From an uncultured Thermoleophilaceae bacterium (GTDB lineage Bacteria; Actinomycetota; Thermoleophilia; Solirubrobacterales; Thermoleophilaceae): a stretch of DNA of 24,000 bases. The stretch lies in contig CAVRKM010000003.1 in assembly GCA_963722245.1 (NCBI GenBank), positions 28,572 to 52,571 of the forward strand, in the 5' to 3' direction. This document shows positions 3,534 to 22,570 of the stretch, piece after piece; the stretch's first letter is position 1, and each line of letters starts with the position of its first letter. The notes under the pieces were generated by a model. It searched no databases and had not been told where the DNA came from. It worked only from the letters and a program-made list of their open reading frames with translations. Made by a program: the position numbers and the translations under genes.

Positions 3534-3549
3534 GAGCGTTGCCGCGGAC

Positions 3550-6500: not shown

Positions 6501-9158
6501 AGCGCGACGGCAAGACCCGGCGCCTCGCCGCCGCCTTCGTGGAACTCGATCAGGTCGGCGCGGCCGGCCACGCGCTGGCCGAGCTCGCGGGCGAGACCGA
6601 CGAGTCGATCGAGTTCGTGGCCGACTTCTACGCCGCCCACCCCGAGCCCGCCGAGTCGCACGACGAGCTTCGCGCCCGGCTGCGGCAGGAAATCGCGGAG
6701 GCCGCCCTGCCGACCCGGGTGGAAAGCGTGGTGTTCGCGTTCGCCGAGCCCGCGCGCGGGCGCGGCATGTCCGCCGTCGACTTCGTCAGCTTCCAGCCGG
6801 ACTGCCGACGGCACCCTCGCGGAGGACGACTCGCTGCGCGACCTCCATCCGATGATGGCCGAGCGCCTGCGGCTCTGGCGCCTTGCCGAGTTCGACCTGA
6901 CGCGGCTTCCCTCCGCCGAGGATGTCTACCTCTACAGCGGCGTGTCGAGGGCCAACCCGAAGGACGAGCGCCTCTTCGCGCTCGCCGAGGTGCGCGACCT
7001 GACACCCGTCAACGACGAGACGGGCCGTCTGCACGGGCTGCCCGAGCTGGAGCGGGTGCTGGTCGAGGCGCTCGAGGCGATGCGTGCCTTCCAGGCTCCC
7101 CGCGAGCCGCGCCGGCGCCTGCTCTGGAACCGAGTCCTGCTCTACGCCTGGCCCACGATCGACTTCGCCCCCGACGACGTGCGCCGCGTCATCGAGCGCT
7201 ACGCCCGCGCGACCGGGGGCCTCGGGATCGAGATGGTCGAGCTGCGCGGCACGATGCGCGATGAGGCCGGCGGGGAGTCGGAGCGCGAGCTGCGCTTCTT
7301 CAGCCCCACCGGACGCGGCGTGGTGGTGGAGGTGGACGATCCGCCCACCCGCCCGCTGCAGCCGCTCGACGAGGGCGCGCGACGGGTCGTGCAGGCGCGG
7401 CGCCGCGGCACCGTCCATCCCGCCGAGCTCGTGAAGCTGCTCGCCCCTGCGCGCGGGGACCGCGACCACGGGGGCCGGCCCCCCGGCGCCTTTGTCGAGC
7501 ATGACTTTGACGCTCGCGGCCGACTCGCGCCCGTCAGCCGCGGCCCGGCCCTGAATGAGGCCAGCGTCGTGGTGGGAGTGGTGAGCAACTACACCGATCG
7601 CTATCCCGAGGGCATGCAACGCGTCGCCCTGCTGAGCGACCCCACACGCGCGCTGGGCTCGCTGGCCGAACCGGAATGCACCAGGATCATCGCCGCGCTC
7701 GACCTCGCCGAGAAACTCGGGGTGCCGGTCGAATGGTTCGCCCTGTCGGCTGGCGCCAAGATCGCGATGGACTCCGGCACGGAGAACATGGACTGGATCG
7801 CCGCGGTGCTGCGCAGGATCATCGAGTTCACCCAGCGCGGGGGTGAGCTGAACGTCGTCGTGACCGGCATCAACGTCGGCGCTCAGCCGTACTGGAACGC
7901 CGAGGCGACGATGCTCATGCACACGCGCGGGATCCTCGTGATGACGCCCGACAGCGCGATGGTGCTGACAGGCAAACAGGCGCTCGACTACTCGGGCGGC
8001 GTCTCAGCCGAGGACAACTTCGGCATCGGCGGCTACGAGCGGATCATGGGACCCAACGGGCAGGCCCAGTACTGGGCGCCCGACCTGGCGGCAGCCTGCA
8101 GGGTGCTGCTGTCGCACTACGAGCACACCTACGTGGCGCCCGGCGAACGCTTCCCGCGCCGCGCTCAGACCTCCGACCCGATCGAGCGCGACGTGTGCGG
8201 CTCGCCCCACTTCGCACCGGGGTCGGACCTGCGCGAGGTGGGCGAGATCTTCTCGGACGAGACCAACCCCGGCCGCAAGAAGCCGTTCGACATCCGCTCC
8301 GTGATGCTGGCGACGGTCGACCGCGACCATCCGCCGCTCGAGCGCTGGGCCGGGTGGCGCGAGGCGGAGGTCGCCGTGGTCTGGGACGCCCATCTGGGCG
8401 GCTGGCCGATCTCGGTGCTCGGCATCGAGTCCCGGCCCCTGTCGCGCCACGGGGCGCTGCCGGCCGACGGCCCCGAGCAGTGGACCTCGGGCACGCTCTT
8501 CCCCCAGGCGTCGCGCAAGATCGCCCGTGCGATCAACGCCGCCAGCGGTCGCCGCCCGGTCGTGGTCGTCGCAAACCTCGCCGGCTTCGACGGCTCACCC
8601 GAGTCGATGAGCCGCTGGCAGCTGGAGTACGGCGCCGAGATCGGCCGTGCCGTCGTGAACTTCAGCGGGCCGATCGTGTTCTGCGTCGTCTCGCGCTACC
8701 ACGGCGGCGCGTTCGTGGTGTTCTCCCAGCGGCTGAACGACGATCTCGAGGCAGTGGCGCTCGAGGGCTCACGCGCCTCGGTGATCGGAGGGGCACCGGC
8801 GGCGGCCGTCGTGTTCGCCCAGCAGGTGAAGCGGCGCACGACGCGCGATCCCCGGATCGTCGAGCTGGACGAGCGGATCGAGGCGGCCGAGGGGGCCGAG
8901 CGCCAGCGGCTGCGCGCGCAGCGTGCCGACGCCTGGTCTGAGGTCCACGCGCAGCATCTCGGAGAGCTGGCCGCGGAGTTCGACTCGATCCACTCAGTGG
9001 AGCGAGCGCTTCGGATGGGGTCGGTTAGCCGCATCATCGAGCCGGGCAACATGCGGCCGTTCCTGATCGACGCGGTCGAGCGCGGCATGGAGCGCACGCT
9101 CAAGCGAGACCACCCTGGTCATGACCTCGCCGGGCTGGCTGACGCGCTCCATCGCTGA
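3550..9158 (+). CDS. Single-chain multidomain acyl-CoA/acetyl-CoA carboxylase (biotin carboxylase, BCCP, carboxyltransferase), ~1850 aa. The frame is broken twice as assembled (~6300 and ~6803).
   Basis: The N-terminus FTRLAIVNRGEAAMRVV, KATAGGGGRGIRRV and MEVNARLQVEHPVTE identify the BC/ATP-grasp domain. The biotinylation motif is VLESMKMESS, with the Lys codon at 5437-5439. The CT domain shows VVTGINVGAQPYWNAEATMLMHTRGILVMTPDSAMVLTGKQALDYSGG and VVANLAGFDGSPESMSRWQLEYGAEIGRAVVNFSGPIVFCVVSRYHGGAFVVFS. The conserved reading passes from frame 1 (ORF 3550..6381) to frame 2 (ADRISVLVECPQPLAPLL..., ORF 6320..) to frame 0 (ADGTLAEDDSLRDLHPMMAERL..., ORF 6372..9158). Confidence 0.85.
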
Positions 9159-9834
9159 CGTCCCGGCGGACGACGGCTGGCTCGGTCCGGGCGAGCGCGA
9201 GGTGCTCGCCCGACTTCGGTTCGAGAGGCGCCGCCTGGACTGGCGGCTCGGCCGCTTCACGGCGAAGGCCGCCGTGGCGGCCTGGCTGGGCCTACCCGCC
9301 ACCGGCGTGGTGATCGCGGCCGCATCCGACGGCGCGCCAGAGGCCCGCGTCGGCGACGACCCGGCCCCGGTCTCGCTGTCGCTGAGCCATCGGGGCGGGC
9401 GCGCGCTCGCTGTGGTGGGCGAGGCGGGCATTGCGATGGGATGCGATCTCGAGTTAATCGAGCCGCGCAGCCGGGCCTTCGTGGCCGACTGGCTTGCGCC
9501 GGCCGAGCAGGCTCTGGTGGCCGATGCCTGCGCCTCCGACCGCGACCTGCTCACGAACCTCCTGTGGACCGCGAAGGAGGCCGCCGCCAAGGCACGGCGG
9601 GAGGGGCTCCGCCTTGATCCCCGGCACGCCGTGGCGACGCCCACCGGGATCGGTTCCACGACCCCCGGCTGGCGCCGGCTCGAAGTCATCTGGAGCGACG
9701 GCGGCGGGTGCGCCGCGGGCTGGTGGCGAGGCGAGCCGGGTTGGGTGATGGCAATCGCCGGCGAGCCGGCGCCCGGTGTCCCGCGGGCGCTCGACGCCGT
9801 GGCGACCGAGCCTGCACTGGACGATGGACCGTAG
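9121..9834 (+). CDS. Sfp-type 4'-phosphopantetheinyl transferase
   Basis: 237-aa ORF with IAMGCDLELIE (metal-binding GxD..E) and LLWTAKEAAAKARREG (W/FxxKEAxxK). It overlaps the carboxylase stop by 38 nt and sits next to a multi-ACP synthase. Confidence 0.8.
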   Translation: MTSPGWLTRSIADVPADDGWLGPGEREVLARLRFERRRLDWRLGRFTAKAAVAAWLGLPATGVVIAAASDGAPEARVGDDPAPVSLSLSHRGGRALAVVGEAGIAMGCDLELIEPRSRAFVADWLAPAEQALVADACASDRDLLTNLLWTAKEAAAKARREGLRLDPRHAVATPTGIGSTTPGWRRLEVIWSDGGGCAAGWWRGEPGWVMAIAGEPAPGVPRALDAVATEPALDDGP

Positions 9835-9975: not shown

Positions 9976-10010
9976 CAGTAACCCGCTCTCACCGAGCACG
10001 AGCGTTACTG
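9976..10010 (-). terminator. Stem-loop on the chromosomal side of the island junction, possibly the native terminator downstream of the original tRNA-Phe 3' end
   Basis: CAGTAAC(cc)GCTC, an 11-nt loop, then GAGCGTTACTG form an 11-bp stem with a 2-nt bulge. It abuts and overlaps the direct repeat at 10007. There is no T tract. Confidence 0.3.
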
Positions 10011-10050
10011 ATGGCGAGGGCCGGAATCGAACCGGCGACACCACGATTTT
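10007..10050. repeat. Distal att-type direct repeat: a copy of the 3' 39 nt of tRNA-Phe plus 5 nt of flank
   Basis: The 44 nt are identical to 22493-22536. A degenerate extension (10052-10059) matches 22537-22548 with indels. Confidence 0.9.
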
Positions 10051-10272
10051 TCAGTTGCTTCCGAAGGGTGTCGGGTGGTGCACTCGGGTGTTCCGTGGCT
10101 TGGTAGCGGGATAGCAGGTGCCTCGTGGTGCGCTCCGGTGCACCTGGAGGTTTCCAAGCCGTTTCGAAGACGGTGAAGGGCTGAGCGAGAGGCGAGCCCG
10201 CTTGCACGGCGGGTTCCTGCACGGACCTTTCCGGCGCCGCAAGCGGTCGAAGCTTCCCTGGAAGCGCTGAGT

Positions 10273-10326: not shown

Positions 10327-10845
10327 TCAGCGCGGAGGAAGCAGGACGGCGTTGATCGCGTGGATCACGCCGTTGGATGCCTTGACGTCGGCCTGGATCA
10401 CCTTCGCGCCGCCCACCCGCACGGTGCTTCCGCGGGTGCGGACGCGGACGCGAGGCCCGGCCAGGGTCTTGAGCGAGTCGACCTTCACTACCCGCGCGGC
10501 CGGGTAACGGCCGGCCACGGCGTGGTAGAGCAGCACGCGCTTCAGCGCCTTCGGGTCCTCACCAAGCGCCTCGAGGGTCTCGGCCGGGACCTTCTTGAAG
10601 GCCTTGTCGGTCGGGGCGAAGACCGTGAACGGCCCCTTCCCCGACAGTGTCTTTGCGAGCCCGGCGCTCTTGACGAGCGAGACGAGCGTGTCGAAGCGCC
10701 CGTCGGCGGCGGCTGTCTTCACGATGTTCTTCCGTGCCTGCTTTGCAGCGGGCTCCGCGGTGGAGCCGTTGCCGCCCCCGAGCGCGACGGCCGCGGTGGC
10801 GAGTCCCGCTACGGCGACCAGGACGAGGATTGCGAGCTTACGCAT
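10327..10845 (-). CDS. Secreted fasciclin (FAS1) domain protein
   Basis: 172 aa with signal peptide MRKLAILVLVAVAGLATAAVA. FAS1 motifs are FTVFAPTDKAF, LLYHAV and NGVIHAINAVLLP. AAGGAG (10857-10852) lies 6 nt before the ATG. Confidence 0.9.
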   Translation of the reverse strand: MRKLAILVLVAVAGLATAAVALGGGNGSTAEPAAKQARKNIVKTAAADGRFDTLVSLVKSAGLAKTLSGKGPFTVFAPTDKAFKKVPAETLEALGEDPKALKRVLLYHAVAGRYPAARVVKVDSLKTLAGPRVRVRTRGSTVRVGGAKVIQADVKASNGVIHAINAVLLPPR

Positions 10846-10869
10846 TAGTCACTCCTTCTGTCGATGTGC

Positions 10870-10919
10870 TGTACCACTCTTGTCCAAGAACTGTATAGCA
10901 CACGTCGAGCTACTGTCAA
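10870..10919 (-). promoter_or_regulatory. Predicted promoter of the FAS1 gene (TTGACA, 18-nt spacer, TACAGT) overlaid by 11-bp-phased TGT/ACA repeats; candidate LitR/CarH operator
   Basis: On the minus strand TTGACA is at 10919-10914 and TACAGT at 10895-10890. On the plus strand TGTAC starts at 10870, TGTCC at 10881, TGTAT at 10892, CGTCG at 10903 and TGTCA at 10914, an exact 11-bp phase. The 10-mer ACTGTATAGC (10890-10899) recurs at the litR promoter. Confidence 0.5.
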
Positions 10920-10975
10920 GACTGCCTCTTCCGGCGCCGTCCACGCCGGGGGCCGGGCAGGTCGTGCACCGGGCG

Positions 10976-11829: not shown

Positions 11830-11832
11830 CGC

Positions 11833-11865
11833 TGTACTGTATAGCTTTTGTACAGAGGTGTGGAA
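11833..11865 (-). promoter_or_regulatory. Predicted leaderless litR promoter (TCCACA, 17-nt spacer, TACAGT) with TGT/ACA repeats; candidate autoregulatory operator
   Basis: TACAGT is at 11841-11836 and the A of the ATG (11829) is the 7th nt after it. TCCACA is at 11864-11859. Plus-strand TGT starts at 11833, 11838, 11849 and 11859. ACTGTATAGC at 11836-11845 is identical to 10890-10899. Confidence 0.45.
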
Positions 11866-11910
11866 GGACACGGGCGCCTCGCCCGCGAAGCTGTCTCGCC
11901 CCTGACGCTT

Positions 11911-12621
11911 ATGGCGGTCCAGCTCTTTCGCCATCGCGATCAGGACCCGTCCGTAGATGACAACGCACTGGTGACCTTCGCCCAAGAAGGTTTGCCGGTG
12001 ACCGAGGAGTACGACGGAGGCCGTCTCTTGACGCGCGTCAACGGGCGGCGGATGATCACGCCGCTCGTCCTCGTGCTGCTTGCGATCGGCAGCACGGACA
12101 TCCTGTTCGCACTGGACTCCATCCCGGCGGTCTTCGGCGTCACGGAGGAGACGTTCATCGTGTTCGCGGCCAAGGCGTTCGCCTTGCTCGGCCTGCGCGC
12201 GCTGTTCTTCCTGGTCACTGGACTGCTGGACCGGCTCGTCTACCTCTCAACGGGCCTATCGCTCATCCTCGCCTTCATCGGCGCCAAGCTCGTGCTGCAC
12301 TGGGGCCACCTCCAGAACCCCCATGTCCCTGAAATCTCCACCGGGGCATCGCTCGTGGTCATCGCGGTCGTGCTCGGTATCACGACCCTCGCCAGCCTCA
12401 CCGAAGTGCGCCGGAACCCGACCGGCGAGCGCATGCTGGTTCGCTGCGCTCGCACCCGCCGGAGTCCCCGCCCCGCCGCGGGCCGACCGAAACACCGTCA
12501 AAGGCGCCCAAGGGCCCATGGCAACGAAGCGGCCGAAGTGATTCGGCACCCTCGACCTCCTGAACGGCAAGCGGAACGTGAAGTGCCCGTTCGCCGCGGA
12601 TATCCCTGCAAACACGCATGA
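11911..12621 (+). pseudogene. TerC-family membrane protein, C-terminal half only (5'-truncated remnant)
   Basis: GRRMITPLVLVLLAIGSTDILFALDSIPAVFGVTEETFIVFAAKAFALLGLRALFFLV matches the TerC core. The N-terminal ~4 TM segments are absent and the remnant begins at the litR promoter. The Arg-rich tail after ~12430 looks non-native. Confidence 0.6.
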
Positions 12622-12797: not shown

Positions 12798-13583
12798 TCA
12801 GCCGCCTGCGAGCGCGCCGGCGTAGACCTGCCATGCCAGCGCGCTCTTGGCGACCAAGCTGAGGATCAGGTAGACGCGCTCGGCGAACGCCGGGTCCGCC
12901 CAACGGCCGCGCTCACGGTACTGCAGCCACATGTTGACCGCGAACGTGTTGAAGAGCAGGAACAGCGTGACGAAGATCGCGACGACGAACCCGGGGACCC
13001 CGTTGCCGTCGCTAGTCGAGACGACGAGTTGGGCCGTGATCGCGATCCACGGGACGGCGCCAACCACGCACCCGAAGATGAACGGCCGCCAGTCCACCTC
13101 GTCACGGCCGGCGTTCACCTGCTCCTGCACAAGCCCGAAAAGGATCATCGCCGCATTCGCCCCGAACAGCGCGATCAGCGCGACGAGCTCGCTGACCCCA
13201 GCGAGCATCGCGATGAGCACGACCATGAGCGACGCGCTGACCGAGTACTCCCACCAGCGCGCCGGATTGATCCCGCGCGCAACGTTCGCCTCGTACCAGC
13301 GGCGCGGCCGCCCGCCGCTCAGCGTGAGGTGGTCGACCGCGGCGAGCAACAGAAACGCCGCGACCAGCCAGTCGATCCGCACACTGCCCAGGCTCGCGGA
13401 GCCGAAGTCGCCGGCGCCGGGCGGGCCGACCAGGAACGACGCCGTGATCGGGAGCGAGGCGGCAGTCGCGATCGCGAGCAGGACGACCGCCTGAAGCGCG
13501 TGCACGGAACCGACGATGACGTTCAGACGGCGCAGTCGGGAGGCCGCCGCGGCGTCGAGCTGGGCTGGCGCACGATCGGGCAT
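12798..13583 (-). CDS. Heliorhodopsin (7-TM retinal protein, HeR family)
   Basis: The 261-aa product is colinear with the 48C12 prototype as I recall it: LNVIVGSVHALQAVVLLA, RWWEYSVSASLMVVLIAMLAGVSELVALIALFGANAAMILFG, FGCVVGAVPWI, VPGFVVAIFVTLFLLFNTFAVNMWLQY and YLILSLVAKSALAWQ. H28, H85, E112 and K246 align with H23, H80, E107 and K241 at a constant +5 offset. The Lys codon is at 12848-12846. Confidence 0.9.
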   Translation of the reverse strand: MPDRAPAQLDAAAASRLRRLNVIVGSVHALQAVVLLAIATAASLPITASFLVGPPGAGDFGSASLGSVRIDWLVAAFLLLAAVDHLTLSGGRPRRWYEANVARGINPARWWEYSVSASLMVVLIAMLAGVSELVALIALFGANAAMILFGLVQEQVNAGRDEVDWRPFIFGCVVGAVPWIAITAQLVVSTSDGNGVPGFVVAIFVTLFLLFNTFAVNMWLQYRERGRWADPAFAERVYLILSLVAKSALAWQVYAGALAGG

Positions 13584-13795
13584 GTCCCCAAAGGTACGGT
13601 CGCGGGAGAGAAACGGACCCCGCGTGCCCGGAGGGGTGTCACGGGGATGCCGGACAACAGCGAAGCACGGCGCAAGCTGTAGCCCGAGAGAGCGACTTCT
13701 ACGGAGGGTGGATGACCGCCGACCTGATCGATCCCCTTCAAGGGACCGCCGGGCAGGCTCGGCTGGTGAGGCCGGGGCTGCCGGCGGCTTCGCCT

Positions 13796-14227
13796 TCAGC
13801 GATTGAGTTCGCGCTCGAGCCCGGCCCTCGCGTTGTCCCCGAGGCGCTTGAACATCAGGCCCAGGATCGGATCGGCGAGCTTCAGCAGGCCCTTGGGACG
13901 CAGGTCGGCATCGTAGGTGACCTCGGAGCCGCCGTCAGCGCCGGGCCGGAATGTGATCGTGTCTTCGGAGACGACCGTCGAGCTTTCGGCCCGGACAACG
14001 ATCCGCTCCGGCCGCTCGAAGGTCATGGTCCGGTAGACGAACGGCAGCTCCCGGCCTGCGAAGCGAACGACGACCTCGAATTCCGTGCCGAGCCCCGGTT
14101 GTTCGCCGAGCATCCGGGCGCTGACCGCGGTCTCGTCCCACTCCCTGACGGAGCTGAAGTCGGCCAGGTAGTCGAAGGCCTCGCCCTGGGGCTTGCGTGA
14201 GTGCACGGTGGCCACGTAGCGGGCCAT
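13796..14227 (-). CDS. SRPBCC (START/polyketide cyclase-dehydrase-like) family protein
   Basis: The 143-aa reading starts at the ATG at 14227, preceded by AAGGAGG. MARYVATVHSRKPQGEAFDYLADFSSVREWD...TYDADLRPKGLLKLADPILGLMFKRLGDNA is typical of the small SRPBCC ligand-binding fold. Confidence 0.7.
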   Translation of the reverse strand: MARYVATVHSRKPQGEAFDYLADFSSVREWDETAVSARMLGEQPGLGTEFEVVVRFAGRELPFVYRTMTFERPERIVVRAESSTVVSEDTITFRPGADGGSEVTYDADLRPKGLLKLADPILGLMFKRLGDNARAGLERELNR

Positions 14228-14338
14228 CAGTCGCCCTCCTTGCCGCCGGAGGCGATCGTCGGCACCGTCCCGGCATCCTCGCTCCAGCCGGAGAGACGGG
14301 AGCATTCGTCCCAAAGTCGCTCGCGGTCGGCCTCGGAC

Positions 14339-15247
14339 TCACGCGTCCACGGCACCCGGTGGGTGGACCGCGGGCGCGCGGTCGTGCCAGAACAGACCCG
14401 GGCGCTCGGCAGGCTCGGCGGCCGTCGCGAGCCAGACGATCGTGTCGGCCGCCTGGTCGGCGCTGCGGAGCAGCGGGCGCATCAGCTTGCGGAAGCGGGG
14501 CAGTGACGTCTGCACGCCGGGCGTGTCCGCCCAGCCCGGGTGCATGGCGTGGACGCCGATTCCGGTTTCGCGAAGCCGCTCAGCCCAGAGTTCGGTGAGG
14601 ATCACCTCGCAGCGTTTGGTGTGTGCGTAGAACGCCGGCGGGTCGTACTCGCGGCGCTCCAGCTGGAGGTCATCGGCGCAGAGCCGTTGCGTGTACATGC
14701 CGCCCGAGGAGACGTTGATCACCCGCGAAGGCGCGCCGCGGCGCAGGGCCGGCAACAGCAGGTTGGTGAGCAGAAACGGGCCGAGCACGTTGGTCGCGAA
14801 GGTGAGCTCGAAACCCTCCTCGGTGTGAGTGCGCGTGGACGGCATCACGCCGGCGTTGTTGACGAGCACATGAAGCTCGCCGTGCTCGCTGACGAAGCGA
14901 GAGCTGAACTCACGCACCGAGGCGAGGCTGGACACGTCGCAGACCTCTACCTCCAGGTGGTCGGAGCCGGTGCGCTCGGAGATGCGAGCCCTGGCTCTCT
15001 CGCCCTTTTCACGGTCACGGACGAGCATGTGCACGGTAGCGCCAAGGCCCGCGAACCGCTCGCACGCGGAGGCGCCGATCCCCGCTCCGGCGCCGGTGAC
15101 CAGCACCGACCAACCTGCCGGGGCCGCCTTCGGATCGGGGTCGTTCCAGAACCGCTCCCGCACGGCAAACCCGAGCCTGCTGTAGCCGGGCAGGACAGTC
15201 CAATCGAGGGTCTTGTCGAGGAGGCCGGAGATCAAGGCTCCATTCAC
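14339..15247 (-). CDS. Short-chain dehydrogenase/reductase (DHRS12/retinol-dehydrogenase-like subfamily)
   Basis: GTG start at 15247 follows AGGAGAGG. Motifs are VLVTGAGAGIGAS (TGxxxGxG), NNAG and YAHTKRCEV (YxxxK), with the N-terminal LDKTLDWTVLPGYSRLGF extension. The rest of ORF 14339..15967 upstream is out-of-frame overlap with the next gene. Confidence 0.8.
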   Translation of the reverse strand: MNGALISGLLDKTLDWTVLPGYSRLGFAVRERFWNDPDPKAAPAGWSVLVTGAGAGIGASACERFAGLGATVHMLVRDREKGERARARISERTGSDHLEVEVCDVSSLASVREFSSRFVSEHGELHVLVNNAGVMPSTRTHTEEGFELTFATNVLGPFLLTNLLLPALRRGAPSRVINVSSGGMYTQRLCADDLQLERREYDPPAFYAHTKRCEVILTELWAERLRETGIGVHAMHPGWADTPGVQTSLPRFRKLMRPLLRSADQAADTIVWLATAAEPAERPGLFWHDRAPAVHPPGAVDA

Positions 15248-15885
15248 GCTACCTCTCCTGACTCTGCGGGCGTCCTCATGGCCTTCGTCGAGCGCGACGG
15301 CTGAGCGGAGTAATGGCCCGACGACCCTCGATGCGCAGGCCGCTCGCAACCGGACGAAGACCAGAAGCCCCGAAGTGCGAGCCGCCATCCGGCGCAGACG
15401 TGCCAGCGATCGGCCCGGACGTGCGCACACCAGCGGTCGCGCAGCGCGGCGATCTCGGCAAAGGCCTGTGGGTGCTCTGTCCCGAGCAGCGTGTAGGCCT
15501 CGGGCTTGGCCACCGTCAGCGAGGCCAGCACCTGCGGCGTCGTGACCGCCACATACAGCCCGGTCGCCCCACCCCAGAAGAACCCGATGAGATGAACCGG
15601 CTCGCCGACATGGTTCACGACGGCATGGACCTGGTCGGCGTAGTCGTCGAGGGTCCTCTGCCCTGGAGTGCCGGAGCCGTCGCCGTCGCGGTACGCGTCC
15701 ACCGCGATCAGCCGGTACCCCTCTGGCCACAGCGAGAACACCGCCCGCCACTCGCCGGCGCTGCCCACGCCACTGTGCAGGAACACCGCCGCGGTGCCGT
15801 TGCCGCGCTCGACGATCCGGTTTGCTGTGGCGGTACGTCGCGACGGCGGTCGACCGGGTGCTGCCGGGGCTCGGGCGAGGTGCAC
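15244..15885 (-). CDS. Alpha/beta-hydrolase-fold protein, short and probably degraded, with Phe at the nucleophile position
   Basis: GTAAVFLHSGVGSAGEWRAVF...YRLIAVD...VHLIGFFWGGATG fits the fold (oxyanion HG, nucleophile elbow GxSxG read as GFFWG). The C-terminal ~60 aa is Trp/Cys/Arg-rich and lacks the Asp/His region. The stop overlaps the SDR start in GTGA. Confidence 0.5.
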   Translation of the reverse strand: MHLARAPAAPGRPPSRRTATANRIVERGNGTAAVFLHSGVGSAGEWRAVFSLWPEGYRLIAVDAYRDGDGSGTPGQRTLDDYADQVHAVVNHVGEPVHLIGFFWGGATGLYVAVTTPQVLASLTVAKPEAYTLLGTEHPQAFAEIAALRDRWCAHVRADRWHVCAGWRLALRGFWSSSGCERPAHRGSSGHYSAQPSRSTKAMRTPAESGEVA

Positions 15886-15899
15886 TGCGGCGGCCCGGC

Positions 15900-16345
15900 G
15901 TGGCGGGCAGCCCGTCGAGGGCCGCGGTCGACGAACTCCTCAACGGCGCCGCCGGGCTGCGGCGCAAGCTGGTGATCGTGCTTGGCGATCTCCACGCGGT
16001 GACCAGCCAGGAATGCCTGGCGTCGATCGACTACGCCCTCGCGCACTTTCCTGCGAACACGCACGTCGTCCTCGTTACACGCGTCGATCCGGCGCTCAGG
16101 CTCGCGCGTTTGCGCGCCGGGCGATGCGCTCGCCGAGGTGCGTGCTGATCTCGCGTTGACCCACGCCGAGGCCCACGAGCTGGTCGTGGTGCTCGGTCAT
16201 CTCGAGCTCGCTGCGGAGCAGATCGACGTGCTCGTCGAGCCCACCGAGGGCTGGCCCCGCGGCGCTCGTCCCCGCCTGGCTGTGGCTGCGGACCGTCGAC
16301 GATCCGGCGCGGGCCCGTGCGGGCGTTCGGAGGAGACCACCGCCT
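15900..16345 (+). pseudogene. Central fragment of a MalT/LuxR-type large ATP-dependent regulator (both ends missing, several frame breaks)
   Basis: KLVIVLGDLHAVTSQECLASIDYALAHFPANTHVVLVTRVDPALRLARLRA is followed, in other frames, by DLALTHAEAHELVVVLGHLELAAEQIDVLVEPTEGWP, AALV..WLWLRTVDDP and VRAFGGDHR. There is no NTPase P-loop and no C-terminal HTH. Confidence 0.55.
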
Positions 16346-16642
16346 TCATGCGCCGAGTGCATGGCCGACCTTGACGATGACATAGCCGAGGCCCGCCGCC
16401 CCGAATGCGCGGCGCAGCCAGTTCGTGCCGTCCGCCAGCTCCTCCCACGCCCACGCCGCGAGGCCGGTGTAGAACGTGGCACGCGCGTAGGCATGCGCCG
16501 AGCCGTCCGTCAGCGCCGCGACGAGCCACCCGCCCAGCGCGACGAGCAGCGGCGCGTTCGGGAACTGCGCGACCGGGTAGCTCGCCGGCCAGCCGTGCTG
16601 CCCGCGCCGCCAGGGGTCCCTCGGTGTCGATGTGGTGCTCAC
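16346..16642 (-). CDS. Small hypothetical membrane protein
   Basis: ~98 aa from the GTG at 16642: FPNAPLLVALGGWLVAALTDGSAHAYARATFYTGLAAWAWEELADGTNWLRRAFGAAGLGYVIVKV. It is protein-like in composition and divergent from the acyltransferase gene. The start codon is uncertain. Confidence 0.45.
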   Translation of the reverse strand: MSTTSTPRDPWRRGQHGWPASYPVAQFPNAPLLVALGGWLVAALTDGSAHAYARATFYTGLAAWAWEELADGTNWLRRAFGAAGLGYVIVKVGHALGA

Positions 16643-16732
16643 CGGTGCTGAACCTAGCGGTCGCCCGCCGGGATCGCAGAGAATGGCGACGTGGAGCGGG
16701 GAGGCGTCGACGAGACCCGCGCGGAGACCGTC

Positions 16733-17734
16733 ATGCGACGGCTGCGCACGATCCCGCCGCGCGTGCTGGGGTTGCTGCTGGTCACGGTGCTGCTGCCCGG
16801 TGCTGCTCGTCGTCGCCGTCGTGATCGACGCGCTGCGCCGGGTGGCGTTTGGCGTGCCGCCGACGGCCGCGCGGCTCGTCCTGTTCCTCTGGGTGTACCT
16901 CGCCGCCGAGGTCGCGGGCGTCGCCGCGCTGGCGACGCTGTGGGTCGCGAGCCTCGGCGGCCGGCGCAGCGCCTGGCTGCGTGAGATGACCTGGCGCGTC
17001 CAGCAGCTGTGGGCCGGCGCGCTGCTCGGCGCGGTGCGTGCGCTGTTCCGGCTGCGGCTCGAGGTCGCGGGTGGCGACGAGGTCGCGCCGGGGCCCGTGA
17101 TCGTGCTGATCCGCCACGCGAGCATCGTCGACAACCTGCTGCCGGCGAACCTCGTCGCCCGCCCGCACGGGATCCGCCTGCGCTACGTGCTCAAGCGCGA
17201 GCTGCTCGCCGATCCCTGCCTCGACATCGCCGGGCGACGGCTGCCGAACTACTTCGTGCGCCGCGGAACGGGCGAGGCGCAGGAGCTCGAGCGGGTGCGG
17301 GCGCTCGCCCACGGCCTCGGGACCCGGCGACGGCGTGCTGATCTATCCCGAGGGGACCCGCTTCACGCCGGAGCGCCGCGCCCGCGCGATCGCGCGCATC
17401 GCCGAGCGCGACGCGCGACCTGGCCGCGCGGGCGGAGCGGATCCGGCATCTGCTGCCGCCGCGCCTCGGCGGCGTCGGCGCGCTGCTCGACGGCGCACCG
17501 GACGCCGACGTCGTGGTGATCGCCCACCACGGCTTCGACGGCCTGCGGCTGATCTCGGACATCTGGCGCGGCGGCCTCGTCGGGCTCGTGGTCCGGGTGC
17601 GCGTGACGCGGGTGCCGCGGTGCGCGGTGCCCGAGGCGGATGCCGCCCGCGCGGACTGGCTCTACGAGCTCTGGCAGGACGTCGACGACTGGCTCGACGA
17701 GCAGTTCGAAGAGCGCCGCCGCGCGGATACCGGC
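16733..17734 (+). CDS. PlsC-family lysophospholipid/1-acyl-glycerol-3-phosphate acyltransferase. The frame is broken 3 times as assembled (~16798, ~17320, ~17410).
   Basis: MRRLRTIPPRVLGLLLVTVLLP continues in another frame as VLLVVAVVIDALRR. Motifs follow: VLIRHASIVDNLL (HxxxxD), GDGVLIYPEGTRFTPERR (next frame) and RIRHLLPPRLGGVGALLDG...VVVIAHHGFDG (next frame). No stop precedes the DUF1295 start in that last frame. Confidence 0.7.
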
Positions 17735-18520
17735 ATGAGCACCGCGGGCCTGCTGGCCGTCGAGGCGCGGTGTCATCTGGTGCTGGTCACGGGGCTGTGG
17801 GCGGTGAGCGTCGCCGTGCGCGACACCTCGATCGTCGACGTCTTCTGGGGCAGCGGCTTCGTCGTCGTCGCGTGGGTCGCCTTCGCGCTGGCGGACGGGA
17901 GTCGCGACCGTCGCCTGCTCCTGGCGCTGCTCGTGACGGCCTGGGGCCTGCGCCTGACCGTCTATCTCGGCCGCCGCAACCTCGGCAAGGGCGAGGACCG
18001 CCGCTACGCGGCGATGCGCCGCCGGCACGGCGACCGCTGGCCGCTGCGCAGCCTGGTCGTCGTGTTCTGGCTGCAGGGCGCTCTGATGTGGGTCGTCTCG
18101 CTTCCGGTCCCGGTCGCGATGACCGACCCCACGCCCGCGGGCCTCGGCGCGCTCGACTGGGTCGGCGCCGCGCTGTGGGCGGTCGGGCTCGCGTTCGAGG
18201 CCGTCGGCGACGCGCAGCTCGCGCGATTCAAGGCCGATCCGGCGAACCGCGGCAAGGTCATGGACCGCGGGCTGTGGCGCTACACGCGCCATCCGAACTA
18301 CTTCGGCGACTTCTGCGTCTGGTGGGGGATCTGGCTCATCGCGCTGAGCACCGGCAGCGCGTGGTGGACGGTGGTCGGTCCGGTGGTCATGTCGGTCCTG
18401 CTGATCCGGGTCAGCGGCGCGGCGCTGCTCGAGCGATCGCTGATCCGGCGGCGCGAGGGCTACGCGGACTACGTCGCCCGCACCAGCGCGTTCTTTCCCT
18501 GGCCGCCGCGTCGCCGCTGA
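17735..18520 (+). CDS. DUF1295 / steroid-5-alpha-reductase-like membrane protein
   Basis: The 261-aa product has DTSIVDVFWGSGFVVVAW, GEDRRYAAMRRRHG, GLWRYTRHPNYFGDFCVWWGIWLIAL and LLERSL..RREGYADYVARTSAFFPWPP, the characteristic DUF1295 pattern. Confidence 0.8.
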   Translation: MSTAGLLAVEARCHLVLVTGLWAVSVAVRDTSIVDVFWGSGFVVVAWVAFALADGSRDRRLLLALLVTAWGLRLTVYLGRRNLGKGEDRRYAAMRRRHGDRWPLRSLVVVFWLQGALMWVVSLPVPVAMTDPTPAGLGALDWVGAALWAVGLAFEAVGDAQLARFKADPANRGKVMDRGLWRYTRHPNYFGDFCVWWGIWLIALSTGSAWWTVVGPVVMSVLLIRVSGAALLERSLIRRREGYADYVARTSAFFPWPPRRR

Positions 18521-18562: not shown

Positions 18563-19520
18563 TCAGTGATCGTGCGGCGGCGGTGGACGGGATGGAGAAC
18601 CGGCCGGGGTGGGCGCCCCCTCATCCTCGCCAAGCGCCCTGCGCAGCGCCTCCGTGAAGGGGATCGGGTGCACGTCGAAGAGCGCCGCCCCCGAGCTGTC
18701 CGTAACGGTGGTCGGCGTCGACAGCCCCTCTACGAGTGGCCGGGCGACTCCGGCGTCGACCGGGGTCACGAGTCCGATCCAGAGCGAGGACAGCCAGGGC
18801 GTGAGGAGCGGCACCGGCACCCGGGGGCGGCGCCGCACGCCGAGGGCATCGGCCATCAGGTCGAGCATCTCGCCGTAGGAGAGGACGTCGGGACCTGCGA
18901 TCTGCACCTCGCGGCCCGCTGAGGCTGGGACGTCGGGCGCCGCCACTAGGTAGGTCATCACGTCGTCGATCGCGATCGCCTGCGTGGGCGTCTTGAGCCA
19001 CGCGGGGCCGATCATCGCCGGGAGCCGCTGCACGAGGTAGCGCAGTGTGCGGTAGGACTCGCTTCCCTCCCCCACGATCATCCCGGCTCGGAAGTAGGTC
19101 AGCGGCGGCCCCCGCTCGGAGAGAATCTCGGCGGTCCGGTGGCGGCTGCGAAGGTGCGCCGACCCCGGGCGATCACCCAGCCCGCCCAGGTAGACGACCC
19201 GGGCGATCGCCCTCTCGCGTCGCCATCTCGGCGAAGTTCCGCGCGCTGTGCCGCTCGCGTTCCTCAAACTCGCCCCGTGCCCCGCGTCCCATCGCGTGAA
19301 TGAGGTAGTAGGCGATCTCGACTCGTTCCCCGGCCCCGCGCAGCGCGTTTGCATCGAGCACGTCGGCCTCGTGCAGCTCGAAGCCACGATCGGCCAGCTC
19401 CTGCGCTCGCGAGCGGTCGCGCACGAGACAGCGCACCTCCCAGCCGCGGTCGGCGAGCGCAGCGGCCAGCCGCCCGCCCACGAACCCGGTGGCGCCGGTC
19501 ACGAGCGCACGCCGCGGCAA
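18563..19520 (-). CDS. NAD(P)H-binding NmrA/atypical-SDR-like protein. The frame is broken once as assembled (~19210).
   Basis: MPRRALVTGATGFVGGRLAAALADRGWEVRCLVRD has a TTG start after GAGAGGA. The sequence then continues in another frame as IARVVYLGGLGDRPGSAHLRSRHRTAEIL...GREVQIAGPDVLSYGEMLDLMADALG. Confidence 0.75.
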
Positions 19521-19580: not shown

Positions 19581-19873
19581 TCAGCCTGCGAGCGCGCCGG
19601 CGTAGACCTGCCATGCCAGCGCGCTCTTGGCGACCAAGCTGAGGATCAGGTAGACGCGCTCGGCGAACGCCGGGTCCGCCCAACGGCCGCGCCCACGGTA
19701 CTGCAGCCACATGTTGACCGCGAACGTGTTGAAGAGCAGGAACAGCGTGACGAAGATCGCGACGACGAACCCGGGGACCCCGTTGCCGTCGCTAGTCGAG
19801 ACGACGAGTTGGGCCGTGATCGCGATCCACGGCACGGCGCCAACCACGCACCCGAAGATGAACGGCCGCCAGT
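19581..19873 (-). pseudogene. 3' fragment of a second heliorhodopsin gene (last ~96 codons, TM6-TM7 including the retinal Lys)
   Basis: The 293 nt match 12798-13093 with 2 substitutions and one in-frame 3-nt indel. There is no 5' part and no credible start. Homology stops 13 nt from the MFS stop codon. Confidence 0.85.
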
Positions 19874-19886
19874 AGACCCGAGTCCT

Positions 19887-21588
19887 TCATGGGCGCATCA
19901 GACGGCGCGGTCGAGGAGCGTCAGGCGCGTGCGGGGTTCGCCCGGACGAGCGTCCGAGGCCGCCGGCTGCTCCTCCCGCTGCCGCGCCGCCGGGTCGTCC
20001 GCGCGGCAGCGCCAGGCTCATCAGCAGGCCGAGCACGATGAATCCGGTCGCCAGCAGGGCGGTGCGGCGTACGGCGCTGACGTATGCGTCGTCGAGAGCC
20101 GTGGCCTGCGCCTGGGACCCCGGCAGGGCGCGCACCCCGAGCAGGCTCGTCCCGAGGCTGTCCTCGAACGCCGTCGCGGTCGCGTGGGCCCGTGCGGCCG
20201 GCACGTTCGCCGCCGCCAGTTCGTCGCGCGCGAACGAGCCGAGGCTCAGCGCGAGCACCGTCCCGAGCATCGCGATCCCGAGCGCGGAGCCGAGCTGACG
20301 CGCGGTGCTCTGCAGGCCCGACGCCTGACCGGACTGCTCCGGCGGCACATCGATGAGGATCACGCTCGTCAGCTGCGCGGTGGCGAAGCCGACGCCCAGG
20401 CCGTAGACGAACAGGATCGCCGCGATCTCCCCTTCGCTGATCGTGGTCGATGCCGAGAGTGCGAACGCGCCCACGCCGATGGCCTCGAGCAGCATGCCGG
20501 CCGTGACGACGCGGCGACCGCCGAAGCGCTGGGCCAGGAGCGCGGCAGCGGGCCCCGCGAGGAACGCGCCGGCCGCCATCGCCGCGATCACGACGCCCGT
20601 CTCAGCGCGCTGTAGCCGAGGACCGTCTGCAGGAACAGCGGCAGGACGAACAGGATCCCGAACTCGCCGAGGCTCACGAGCAGCGCCGTCGCGCTGCCGA
20701 GGCTGAAGCTGCGCAGCCGGAACAGGCGGAAGTCCAGCAGCGCGACGCGCCCCGCCTGCTGACGGCGCCACTCGACCGCCAGGAACACGCCGAGCCCGAT
20801 CACCCCGCACGTGAACGCGAACGGCACAGGCGAGGCGCCACCGGCCGAGGCCGACAGCGGCCCGATCGACCAGGCCTCCTTCGCTCCCCACCAGCCGTAG
20901 TGCTGACCCTCGATGAGCCCGAACACGAACAACCCGAGCCCGAACGACGAGAGCAGAATCCCGCGCCAGTCGATCCCCGCTTCAGCATGCTCGTCCTTCG
21001 TCTCGGGGACGAAACGCAACGCCCCGAGGATGCAGACGACGCCGATCGGGACGTTGATGAGGAAGATCCAGCGCCAGCTCGCTTCGGTGACGAGCCAGCC
21101 CCCAACGAGCGGCCCGAGCGCCGCCATGCCGCCGATGACCGAGCCCCACACGCCGAACGCGATCGCCCTGTCGCGCCCGCGGAAGATCGCGTTGACCGAC
21201 GAGAGCGTCGAGGGCAGGATCGCGGCGCCGCCGACGCCCTGCAGCACCCGCGCGGCGATCAGCGCTCCGCCGCTCTGCGAGACCGCCGCGAGCAGACTGG
21301 CGAGCGCGAAAATGACGACGCCGAAGACGAAGACGCGCCGCCGGCCGACACGTCGCCCAGGCGTCCGAGCGTCAAGAGCAGCGCAGCGAAGACGAGCGGG
21401 TAGACCGAGTTGATCCACTCGGCCTGCGTCGTGCCGAGCCCAAGGTCGCGGATGATCGTCGGCAGCGCGACATTCACCACGGTCGCGTCAACGATGATGA
21501 TCGAGACGCCGAGACTCAGAACGGCGAGGCCGATCCAGCGCCCGCGATCCTGCGCCGCACCGGCCATGCGCGCGTCACGCTGGTTCAT
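19887..21588 (-). CDS. DHA2-family (EmrB/QacA-type, 14-TMS) MFS transporter. The frame is broken twice as assembled (~21348 and ~20607).
   Basis: VSIIIVDATVVNVALPTIIRDLG and LTLGRLGD are followed in the next frame by VGRRRVFVFGVVIFALASLLAAV...LQGVGGAAILPSTLS...WRWIFLINVPIG. The next frame gives ETGVVIAAMAAGAFLAGPAAALLAQRFGGRR...LTSVILIDVPPEQSGQASGLQSTARQLG. The start could be the ATG at 21588 or the one at 21567. Confidence 0.8.
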
Positions 21589-21893: not shown

Positions 21894-22388
21894 ATTGGAC
21901 TCGTCTGGGGCAACATCGACTTCGGCAAGGAAGCGATCCGAGTCACCGGACAGCTTCAGCGTGGACGCAAAGAGGACGACCTTTGGATTCCGCTCATCGC
22001 GTCGAGTACGCGAAGACCGATGCTGGCTCGCGCATCGTGGAACTCATCCCGTCCGATCTGTTCAAGGCGCTCAAGAAGCACAAGCTCGGGCTCACCTCAC
22101 TGACGACGAAGACCTAGTTTTCTGCACGGCAGACGGGACGCCCCCGGTCCATCGCAACGTCTCCAAGCGAGGCTTCGTCTCAGCCAAGGAGAGGGCCAAA
22201 CTCGATGGACCTGGCAAGCCCAACCTGCGCTTCCACGATCTGAGGCACACCTACGCCTCAGCCAACATCGCGGCAGGCGTAGATGCGATCTACCTCGCTA
22301 ACCAGCTAGGGCACCAGCGAGCTTCACGATGGACATTTACGCGGACCTGTTCGAGGCCCGGGAGAAGGCGGACTCGTCTCGAACCTAG
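21894..22388 (+). pseudogene. Tyrosine recombinase (phage-type integrase), C-terminal catalytic half only, with >=3 frame breaks
   Basis: GLVWGNIDFGKEAIRVTGQLQRG (frame 0), AKTDAGSRIVELIPSDLFKALKKHKL (frame 2), DLVFCTADGTPPVHRNVSKRGF...NLRFHDLRHTYASANIAAGVDAIYLANQLGH (frame 1) and FTMDIYADLFEAREKA (frame 0, catalytic Tyr). Stop TAG is at 22386-22388. Confidence 0.8.
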
Positions 22389-22451
22389 CTCGAAGCGAGC
22401 GGCTACAGCGGTCTCGTCTGAGACCTCGCGTTCCCAAATCCGTTTCCAAAC

Positions 22452-22485
22452 GAGGCTCCGGCGCAACTCGGAGCCTCCGTTTTGG
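22452..22485 (+). terminator. Intrinsic terminator hairpin between the integrase remnant and tRNA-Phe
   Basis: GAGGCTCCG, loop gcgcaact, then CGGAGCCTC form a perfect 9-bp stem followed by CGTTTTGG. Confidence 0.6.
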
Positions 22486-22497
22486 CTCTAGGACTGA

Positions 22498-22570
22498 TGG
22501 CGAGGGCCGGAATCGAACCGGCGACACCACGATTTTCAGTCGTGTGCTCTACCAACTGAGCTACCTCGCC
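22498..22570 (-). tRNA. tRNA-Phe (anticodon GAA)
   Basis: The minus-strand reading is GGCGAGG TA GCTC AGTTGGTA GAGC A CACGA CTGAAAA TCGTG GTGTC GCCGG TTCGATT CCGGC CCTCGCC A. It is a perfect cloverleaf of 73 nt, and CCA is not encoded. Confidence 0.95.

What the first reader, a model, noticed from the sequence alone, without database searches (positions are those of the whole stretch)
12798..13583. Complete heliorhodopsin with all key residues, carried on a mobile island
The 261-aa product is colinear with the 48C12 prototype. It keeps the Schiff-base Lys (K246, codon 12848-12846, in SLVAKSALAWQ), the counterion Glu (E112, in RWWEYS) and both conserved His residues (H28, H85). All four sit at a constant +5 offset from K241, E107, H23 and H80. 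Unlike many neighbours, it has no frame breaks. No retinal biosynthesis genes (blh/crt) are visible in the window, so the chromophore source is unexplained. Location inside a tRNA island is direct evidence for lateral spread of heliorhodopsins.
Basis: partly seen in the sequence, partly recalled or inferred. Interest (0 to 1): 0.6.

Follow-up and report, generated by a model that had tools for sequence, protein, structure and literature searches.

The report
Heliorhodopsin riding a tRNA-targeted island
A soil actinobacterium picked up an intact light-sensing membrane protein (heliorhodopsin) on a 12.5-kb piece of DNA inserted at a tRNA gene, and close copies of the gene sit on similar inserts in other bacterial families, so this well-known protein spreads sideways in soil.

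Summary
Confirmed. 12798-13583(-) is an intact heliorhodopsin (Pfam and NCBIfam models matched end to end; TM-score 0.85 to 48C12; K246, E112, H28, H85 present). It lies in a 12.5-kb island bounded by a 44-bp repeat of the tRNA-Phe 3' end. Two congeners show the empty site. The gene is in 3 of 81 genomes of the genus and is 89-92% identical to copies in other families whose rpoB is 79-85% identical; the trees disagree (AU p=0.029). Seven of 23 close copies also lie between tRNA repeats, one in an integrase-relaxase element. Lateral spread therefore holds, on this evidence rather than on location alone. Corrections: 'all key residues' is too strong (Ser76->Ala, Phe79->Asp, Tyr226->Pro, clade-wide); the open frame says little (22% of tested genes look broken); missing blh is a published heliorhodopsin pattern. 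The neighbouring CarH-type B12 repressor has its operator before fasciclin, not before the rhodopsin, which has its own leaderless-type promoter. The scan had noted the CarH-heliorhodopsin pairing on other DNA. Verdict: new member of a known family with a well-supported mobile context and an untested helix-B variant.

The parts
12798..13583 (-). Heliorhodopsin, 261 aa, intact; helix-B variant (Ala81, Asp84-His85)
13584..13630 (-). Conserved 5' leader of the clade; TACCTT -10-like hexamer (13596-13591) 7 nt before the ATG: probable leaderless promoter; no CarH operator
   Evidence: alignment; operator scan; promoter role inferred
10007..10050 (.). Left attachment site: 44-bp copy of the tRNA-Phe 3' end
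   Evidence: empty site
22493..22536 (.). Right attachment site, overlapping the tRNA-Phe gene
22498..22570 (-). tRNA-Phe(GAA), integration target
21895..22491 (+). Tyrosine integrase remnant (C-terminal part only, frame-broken)
   Evidence: PF00589 residues 68-143; three-frame reading
10327..10845 (-). Secreted fasciclin-domain protein
   Evidence: PF02469
10858..10923 (-). CarH-type operator: six 11-bp units (4 with perfect TnnACA) over a TTGACA-18-TACAGT promoter, upstream of fasciclin
   Evidence: consensus from PMC8156234
10980..11829 (-). CarH/LitR-type MerR + B12-binding repressor, frame-broken in this assembly; Wx9EH motif present
11914..12498 (+). TerC fragment (5' part missing)
13796..14290 (-). 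SRPBCC / polyketide cyclase family protein
14284..15240 (-). Short-chain dehydrogenase, one frame break
15244..15885 (-). Alpha/beta hydrolase
15822..16148 (+). Fragment of a MalT-like regulator
16346..16642 (-). Small membrane protein, no Pfam family; recurs beside close heliorhodopsins (7 of 24 loci)
16667..17730 (+). Acyltransferase (PF01553), three frame breaks
17726..18520 (+). DUF1295 membrane protein
18600..19520 (-). NAD-dependent epimerase / NmrA-like protein, one frame break
19584..19878 (-). Second, 3'-only piece of the heliorhodopsin gene (residues about 163-260), direct repeat of 12804-13098
19965..21570 (-). MFS transporter, two frame breaks

Best explanation
An ordinary-fold, retinal-binding, non-pumping heliorhodopsin photosensor carried as cargo on an eroded integrative element. 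Shown: the gene, its fold, the att-bounded 12.5-kb insertion at tRNA-Phe, the empty site, and transfer between families of Solirubrobacterales. Inferred steps: (1) a tyrosine integrase inserted the element at the tRNA-Phe 3' end, regenerating the tRNA and leaving a 44-bp copy at the far end; the ancestor was probably an integrative mobilizable element like the one in L025; the integrase has since decayed, so the island is now fixed or moves only with a helper. (2) The gene brings its own short leaderless promoter, so it is expressed wherever it lands and independently of the CarH repressor, which controls fasciclin. (3) The protein inserts N-terminus-in, binds retinal at K246 with E112 as counterion, and after light holds a long-lived state whose change on the cytoplasmic face tunes partner proteins of membrane-lipid or redox upkeep, the kind of genes it travels with (SDR, NAD-epimerase, acyltransferase, DUF1295), without one fixed transducer. 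(4) Retinal is taken from the environment or made by an unrecognised route.
For: Family and fold. Inverted charge pattern: K+R 4,4,2,4 in N-terminus, BC, DE, FG loops and 0 in AB, CD, EF loops. Island. Distribution: 3 of 81 in the genus, 7 of 211 in the family, 46 of 401 in the order. Transfer: 90-92% nt to genomes with rpoB 79-85%, but 79% to the congener whose rpoB is 89%; dN 0.03-0.06 against 0.11-0.15 for rpoB; rpoB joins the window with that congener at 100/100, the heliorhodopsin tree rejects it, p-AU 0.029. tRNA repeats flank 7 of 23 close loci, 3 of 37 more distant ones, 5 of 300 control windows. L025 holds integrase, excisionase and TrwC relaxase. Selection: dN/dS 0.10-0.22. Promoter; no operator before 25 of 25 close heliorhodopsin starts. 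18 of 24 close loci share at least one of nine island gene families, none more than 8 of 24. blh in 1 of 30 carrier genomes, the one that also has a type-1 rhodopsin.
Against: No expression, retinal-binding or partner data: steps 2-4 are inference. Synonymous divergence to the closest copies (dS 0.23-0.37) is no lower than for rpoB (0.27-0.44, probably compressed by codon bias), so no sampled genome is the direct donor and the transfer is not very recent. The AU test is on two rows and p is modest. Six of 24 close loci have none of the shared neighbours, and 16 of 23 show no flanking tRNA repeat within 8 kb. The island's cargo looks partly decayed (8 frame breaks in about 8.9 kb of compared genes, against 0.30 per kb elsewhere). 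The genome is 76% complete, so retinal genes may be unassembled.
Confidence: 0.72

Rival explanations
1. The Asp84-His85 / Ala81 form has altered photochemistry: the helix-B carboxylate replaces the Ser76 hydrogen bond and acts as a built-in proton acceptor or fixed anion in the Schiff-base cavity, giving a different photocycle, colour or even proton transport.
For: D84 in 80 of 80 and A81 in 79 of 79 aligned Thermoleophilia loci. Among 113 cluster representatives covering the helix, Asp at this place occurs with Ser76 in 1 of 52 and without Ser in 31 of 61; 20 of 21 Asp/Glu carriers among 95 near-full-length rows lack Ser76. Position 79 is named among cavity-side differences in 10.1101/2025.11.27.691015; Ser76 reorientation is argued to be a prerequisite of proton transfer in PMC9726877.
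Against: Phylogenetically independent contrasts are too few (2 on supported branches, sign test median p 0.5). I could not measure side-chain distances on the model. A Geodermatophilaceae heliorhodopsin from a group with Ser76->Ala absorbed at 559 nm and did not pump (10.1101/2024.05.16.594530); whether it has the Asp was not checked. S76A shifts 48C12 by only 6 nm.
Confidence: 0.25
2. The gene is a near-neutral passenger in this host: it came in with the island, lacks retinal, and is waiting to decay like its neighbours.
For: No blh, crtI, lycopene cyclase, carotenoid oxygenase or type-1 rhodopsin found in the genome; truncated TerC, MalT, integrase and a second heliorhodopsin piece in the island; broken heliorhodopsins in 3 of the 6 other carriers of the family (G244, G220, G137); an open frame is expected by chance.
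Against: Purifying selection in all pairwise comparisons, though that may predate arrival here; leader and start are intact; near-identical island pieces occur in independent soil runs; lack of blh is shared by 29 of 30 carriers.
Confidence: 0.2
3. The heliorhodopsin is an output of the CarH/B12 light switch: light lifts repression and induces the rhodopsin with the rest of the cassette.
For: CarH lies within 8 kb in 8 of 24 close loci against 2 of 56 distant ones; in L034 CarH, TerC and heliorhodopsin are co-oriented and abut.
Against: Operator arrays lie before fasciclin, HtaA or carH, never within 200 nt of a close heliorhodopsin start (0 of 25); here a convergent TerC piece separates the two genes; carH is frame-broken in this assembly.
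Confidence: 0.1
4. No lateral transfer: an old gene kept at a variable tRNA site and lost in most relatives, or an assembly chimera.
For: Long-read-type assembly with many frame errors and a sibling haplotype (contig C14) in the same bin; no run spans the island.
Against: Empty site with 94-99% identical left flank in G018; tree conflict; protein more conserved than RpoB across families; left-flank/att junction shared with G018.
Confidence: 0.05

Closest known systems
Heliorhodopsin 48C12 (PDB 6SU3, 6SU4, 6UH3, 9LJJ), subfamily 1 of Kovalev et al. 2020 (PMC7049168)
   Same: 42% identity, TM-score 0.85, seven helices with AB-loop beta-hairpin; N16, H23, Q26, H80, Y92, N101, R104, W105, E107, Y108, S111, N138, E149, Q216, E230, R231, S237, K241, W246 all matched
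   Different: S76->A81, F79->D84, Y226->P231, Q213->M218; soil Thermoleophilia host; on a tRNA island
TaHeR, Thermoplasmatales archaeon (PDB 6IS6, 7U55, 7CLJ)
   Same: 41% identity, TM-score 0.82; Met at the Q213 position and Asn before it
   Different: TaHeR keeps Ser78 and has Ala before its helix-B His; archaeal
Geodermatophilaceae heliorhodopsins, e.g. BagHR (10.1101/2024.05.16.594530)
   Same: Terrestrial actinobacteria, Ser76->Ala, high mutual identity, varied neighbours, some broken copies
   Different: No island or transfer analysis in the passages read; no helix-B Asp mentioned in section 14
Heliorhodopsin neighbour groups of Cho et al. 2024 (PMC11109279) and Chazan et al. (10.1101/2021.02.16.431466)
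   Same: MerR regulator, TerC, SDR, alpha/beta hydrolase, DUF1295 beside the gene; blh absent unless another rhodopsin is present
   Different: Here these genes are one shuffled mobile cassette; the MerR is a CarH-type B12 photoreceptor whose operator serves fasciclin; the rhodopsin is not in an operon with them
tRNA-targeted integrative mobilizable elements (tyrosine integrase, excisionase, MOBF/TrwC relaxase; general class recalled)
   Same: att repeats from a tRNA 3' end, integrase next to the tRNA, accessory cargo; complete set in L025
   Different: The window's element has only an integrase remnant, and no TrwC-like relaxase was found in its genome

Membership tests
Heliorhodopsin | Full-length match to the family model | tested here: met
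   PF18761 1-242/242, 302 bits; NF038020 1-244/244
Heliorhodopsin | Seven helices with AB-loop beta-hairpin | tested here: met
   Model pLDDT 86.6, strands 43-51 and 60-69; TM-score 0.81-0.85 to ten heliorhodopsin chains
Heliorhodopsin | SxxxK in helix 7 with Schiff-base Lys; counterion Glu in helix 3 | tested here: met
   S242, K246, E112
Heliorhodopsin | Inverted topology (N-terminus inside; positive-inside, negative-outside) | tested here: met
   By charge count only: 14 K/R on the N-terminal side, 0 on the other; not shown by experiment
Heliorhodopsin | Schiff-base cavity residues H23, H80, N16, Y92, N101, R104, Y108, E230, S237, S111, E149 | tested here: met
   list from PMC7049168
Heliorhodopsin (48C12 pattern) | Ser76 and Tyr226, highly conserved in the family | tested here: not met
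   A81 and P231, with D84 at Phe79; clade-wide. Ser76->Ala is known in other members, so this marks a variant, not exclusion
Heliorhodopsin | Binds all-trans retinal, slow photocycle, no ion pumping | not testable with these tools
   needs expression and spectroscopy
tRNA-integrated genomic island | Direct repeat of the tRNA 3' end at both ends | tested here: met
   44 nt, 100%
tRNA-integrated genomic island | Empty site in relatives | tested here: met
   G018 and G195; sibling contig C14 has other DNA there
tRNA-integrated genomic island | Deviant base composition | tested here: not met
   70.3% GC against 70.2-71.9% for the contigs; expected if the donor is a high-GC relative
Active integrative mobilizable element | Intact integrase and relaxase | tested here: not met
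   Integrase remnant only; no TrwC-like hit in the genome
Active integrative mobilizable element | Excised circle | not tested
   the stretch laid did not include the right end, and only contigs were available
CarH/LitR regulon member (heliorhodopsin gene) | Three or more tandem 11-bp TnnACA units at the promoter | tested here: not met
   none within 200 nt of the start; array lies before fasciclin

The most novel reading that the evidence does not exclude
A young, abundant soil clade of heliorhodopsins with a distinct helix-B chemistry (Ala-x-x-Asp-His in place of Ser-x-x-Phe/Ala-His) is a portable, self-promoting one-gene light module. It is spreading among Thermoleophilia families on tRNA-targeted mobilizable elements, mostly into hosts that make no retinal by known routes, so it works alone, on scavenged chromophore and without a dedicated transducer, possibly with the new Asp as the proton acceptor that 48C12 lacks.
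Probability: 0.22. Interest if true: 0.68.

Novelty: new member of a known kind. Interest (0 to 1): 0.42.

Why it matters
What heliorhodopsins do in cells is unsettled, and most arguments rest on gene neighbours. This case shows that in soil Thermoleophilia the neighbours are shuffled cargo of mobile islands, which weakens partner assignments made from adjacency, and that the gene is kept under selection while moving alone into hosts without blh. It also offers natural with/without pairs (island versus empty site within one genus) and a natural Asp-beside-His variant for testing the unresolved proton-acceptor question. The protein family, its neighbour types and the missing retinal pathway are all published.

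Tried and rejected
Cross-phylum transfer: L018 (90% nt) comes from a genome titled 'delta proteobacterium' (rpoB 73%). Rejected as a probable mis-binned contig: 97-98% identical over 5 kb to L015 of a Solirubrobacteraceae genome, same tRNA-Phe att variant as those hosts, and a helicase 75% identical to the window's genome; PMC8612252 reports a like contaminant. Very recent transfer from a sampled donor: not supported by dS. The single squalene/phytoene synthase gene as a carotenoid pathway: it scores best to HpnD, below cut-off, beside a geranylgeranyl-reductase-like gene, with no crtI. GC content as island evidence: flat. Single-sequence fold: pLDDT 56, unusable; replaced by the alignment-based model. 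Independent-contrast test of Ser76/Asp79 coupling: underpowered. Sequencing runs: no RNA holder listed; no listed piece spans the stretch, and the run guessed to be RNA was not used as expression evidence. The careful protein tree did not finish; the quick tree was read. No complex prediction was run, since no neighbour exceeds 8 of 24 loci. Paper searches for heliorhodopsin with island, transfer, Thermoleophilia or a helix-B Asp listed nothing that describes these, but their rankings were swamped by papers without the word heliorhodopsin.

Full report
1. The gene. Window 12798-13583(-) encodes 261 aa without a stop. It matches Pfam PF18761 over 1-242 of 242 positions (302 bits) and NCBIfam NF038020 over 1-244 of 244. 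All six PDB sequences hit are heliorhodopsins, 48C12 first. A model built on a 28-row alignment (pLDDT 86.6) has seven helices and the AB-loop hairpin and matches ten heliorhodopsin chains at TM-score 0.81-0.85. Lys and Arg lie only on the N-terminal side (14 against 0), the inverted pattern described in PMC7049168 (passages). H28, H85, R109, E112, S116, S242 and K246 are in place. Of the residues that paper lists as conserved, Ser76 is Ala81 and Tyr226 is Pro231, and Phe79 has become Asp84, next to His85. These changes are clade-wide: D84 in 80 of 80, A81 in 79 of 79, P231 in 79 of 80 aligned loci.

2. The island. A perfect 44-nt repeat (10007-10050, 22493-22536) copies the 3' end of tRNA-Phe (22498-22570) and bounds 12,530 bp at 70.3% GC. 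A broken C-terminal piece of a tyrosine integrase lies beside the tRNA. In congener G018 the window's left flank (94-99% identical) runs straight into a whole tRNA-Phe; in G195 the flank lies 30 bases from the tRNA, with the ferritin gene behind it. These are empty sites. Contig C14 of the same bin, a sibling haplotype, also carries other DNA at this tRNA. The fatty-acid/polyketide cluster on the left is itself patchy (9 of 81 genomes of the genus, 97-98% identical in two), so the site collects insertions in tandem. Cargo: fasciclin, a CarH-type MerR/B12 repressor, a TerC fragment, the rhodopsin, SRPBCC, SDR, alpha/beta hydrolase, a MalT fragment, a small membrane protein, an acyltransferase, DUF1295, an NAD-dependent epimerase, a second 295-nt 3' piece of the rhodopsin gene (2 differences in the first 290 nt), and an MFS transporter. 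The repeat pair suggests that the 6.8-kb block between the copies came in by recombination at the gene's 3' end (inference). Short contigs from three soil DNA runs match island pieces with 0-25 differences, none spanning it.

3. Lateral transfer. The family model rings in 3 of 81 genomes of the genus, 7 of 211 of the family and 46 of 401 of the order, own genome included. The 80 best loci of 160 found in genome contigs are mostly titled Solirubrobacterales or Actinomycetes; the nearest congener carrier is titled Thermoleophilaceae. Eighteen genomes hold the gene at 89-92% nt identity. RpoB was found in 16 of these and is 79-85% identical in 15 (the other is the mis-binned case below). The congener's copy is only 79% identical although its rpoB is 89%. 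Close copies lie in at least two other families of the order. Non-synonymous divergence to the close copies is 0.03-0.06 for the rhodopsin and 0.11-0.15 for RpoB; for the congener the order is reversed (0.125 against 0.064). On 24 genomes the rpoB tree joins the window and the congener at 100/100, while the rhodopsin tree rejects that pair (p-AU 0.029). Against a very recent event: dS to the closest copies is 0.23-0.37, no lower than for rpoB. dN/dS is 0.10-0.22 in 23 of 24 pairs and 0.33 for the most distant.

4. The vehicle recurs. Repeats of a tRNA 3' end flank the gene within 8 kb in 7 of 23 full-length close loci (Phe three times, Gly twice, Thr, Arg; L016 was too short), in 3 of 37 full-length more distant loci (19 short ones left out) and in 5 of 300 random windows of the own genome (slightly different rule). 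L025 shows the complete form at tRNA-Arg: integrase, excisionase, TrwC relaxase (split in two ORFs), toxin-antitoxin pair and light-related cargo. No TrwC-like gene was found in the window's genome. Homology among close copies starts about 45 nt before the ATG and ends at the stop. The leader has a TAnnnT hexamer 5-7 nt before the start in 21 of the 23 aligned copies (TACCTT here), the layout of a leaderless promoter (layout recalled; PMC8156234 gives TACCTC as a sigma-A -10 element). Neighbours are drawn from one pool: 18 of 24 close loci have at least one of nine island families, CarH 8, fasciclin 7, SRPBCC 7, small membrane protein 7, SDR 6, epimerase 6, acyltransferase 6, DUF1295 3, TerC 1 (40% identity threshold). 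No partner is constant.

5. CarH. The MerR/B12 gene has the Wx9EH motif and scores best to the CarH model, below its cut-off; it is frame-broken here. Six 11-bp units fitting the published CarH consensus (PMC8156234, passages) overlie the fasciclin promoter at 10858-10923; they give 4 of the 7 hits at that score in the 3.7-Mb genome. Arrays at that score occur in 10 of the 80 related loci, and none lies within 200 nt of 25 close rhodopsin starts. So the two photoreceptors are neighbours, not one circuit, in this window. An earlier scan note (e1-2462114) read another genome this way; I tested it here and it holds. L034, with co-oriented CarH-TerC-rhodopsin, may differ.

6. Retinal. Not found in the genome (76% complete): blh, carotenoid oxygenase (15), crtI (31, 66), lycopene cyclases (32; 33 gave only weak partial hits), type-1 rhodopsin (65). 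Among 30 genomes carrying close copies, blh is in 1, crtI in 6 (35 candidates scored per genome), carotenoid oxygenases in 9, type-1 rhodopsin in 1. The one with blh is the one with the type-1 rhodopsin, in an idi-crtI-crtB-blh-crtY cluster, which also shows that the searches work. Chazan et al. (10.1101/2021.02.16.431466, passages) report this pattern family-wide; Kornilov et al. (10.1101/2025.11.27.691015, abstract and passages) propose uptake of outside carotenoids. The gap is real but known.

7. Frame breaks. 26 of 116 orthologous genes (from 166 congener ORFs tested) look broken in this assembly, 0.30 per kb, so an open 786-bp frame is expected about 79% of the time. The island shows 8 breaks in about 8.9 kb of compared genes (my sum). 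Two acyltransferase indels are absent from contigs of three runs. Decay and assembly error cannot be separated here.

8. The helix-B variant. Among 113 of 150 cluster representatives that cover the helix, Asp at the Phe79 position occurs with Ser76 in 1 of 52 and without it in 31 of 61. It appears in at least two parts of a fast tree (9 changes on 95 rows), but only 2 independent contrasts are supported. Ser76 is argued to be needed for proton transfer to Glu107 (PMC9726877, passages). Ser76->Ala is reported for Geodermatophilaceae (10.1101/2024.05.16.594530, passages and section 14). I found no mention of the Asp (searches; passages of PMC7049168 and PMC9601134), but the alignments in these papers' supplements were not seen and may show it. 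This is a lead, not a finding.

9. Comparison and verdict. MerR, TerC, SDR and alpha/beta hydrolase are published neighbour groups (PMC11109279, passages), and DUF1295 too. Restriction to monoderms is published (PMC8612252, passages) and fits the rejection of the 'delta proteobacterium' copy as mis-binned. I saw no paper placing heliorhodopsins on tRNA islands (searches; listings only, and noisy); lateral transfer of microbial rhodopsins in general is well known (recalled). The protein is a new member of a known family. What this window adds is a documented insertion with empty sites, a recurring vehicle and a natural variant worth a bench test. Interest 0.42. The genus tallies (and probably 29, 97) include G192 and G193, flagged unpublished; no other claim rests on them.

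Noticed in passing
window 1-9834 (G000:C3 about 4080-38577): Iterative PKS/fatty-acid synthase, fused acetyl-CoA carboxylase and PPTase cluster, found in 9 of 81 congeners and 97-98% identical in two, where it also lies just before tRNA-Phe: probably an older island at the same site.
   Followed up: partly
window 10070-10208 and G000:C3:6888-7023: A 140-nt non-coding stretch just inside the left att recurs at 86% identity 32 kb upstream; may mark an element end.
   Followed up: no
G000:C14 (L008): A 19-kb contig 87-97% identical to C3 around tRNA-Phe, with its own tRNA-Phe and a 27-nt att copy at 6544: a sibling strain binned into the genome.
   Followed up: partly
L025:462-15342: Complete-looking integrative mobilizable element at tRNA-Arg carrying heliorhodopsin, fasciclin, ECF sigma/anti-sigma, HtaA-like protein and a PIN toxin-antitoxin pair.
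   Followed up: partly
L033:105-8786: Cluster idi-crtI-crtB-blh-crtY with a type-1 rhodopsin (PF01036) and a heliorhodopsin 1.3 kb apart in a Solirubrobacteraceae genome; the type-1 protein's motif was not analysed.
   Followed up: partly
L043, L050, L052 and 17 more loci: His23-equivalent replaced by Phe in 17 and Ala in 3 of the related heliorhodopsins; 10 of the 56 distant loci lie beside a photolyase-related (DPRP) gene.
   Followed up: no
L024:6731-7855, L025:1740-2804, L030:9833-10936, L033:6811-7875: Secreted HtaA-like proteins recur beside close heliorhodopsins (4 of 24 loci), twice directly behind a CarH operator.
   Followed up: no
window 16346-16642: 98-aa membrane protein without a Pfam family, present in 7 of 24 close heliorhodopsin loci.
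   Followed up: no
L018 (G049:C3): 102-kb contig of actinobacterial character in a genome titled delta proteobacterium; probable binning error.
   Followed up: yes
window 11830-11875: Before carH, two TnnACA units 11 bp apart and a third 10 bp away, over a TACAGT hexamer close to the ATG: possible weakened autoregulatory operator.
   Followed up: partly
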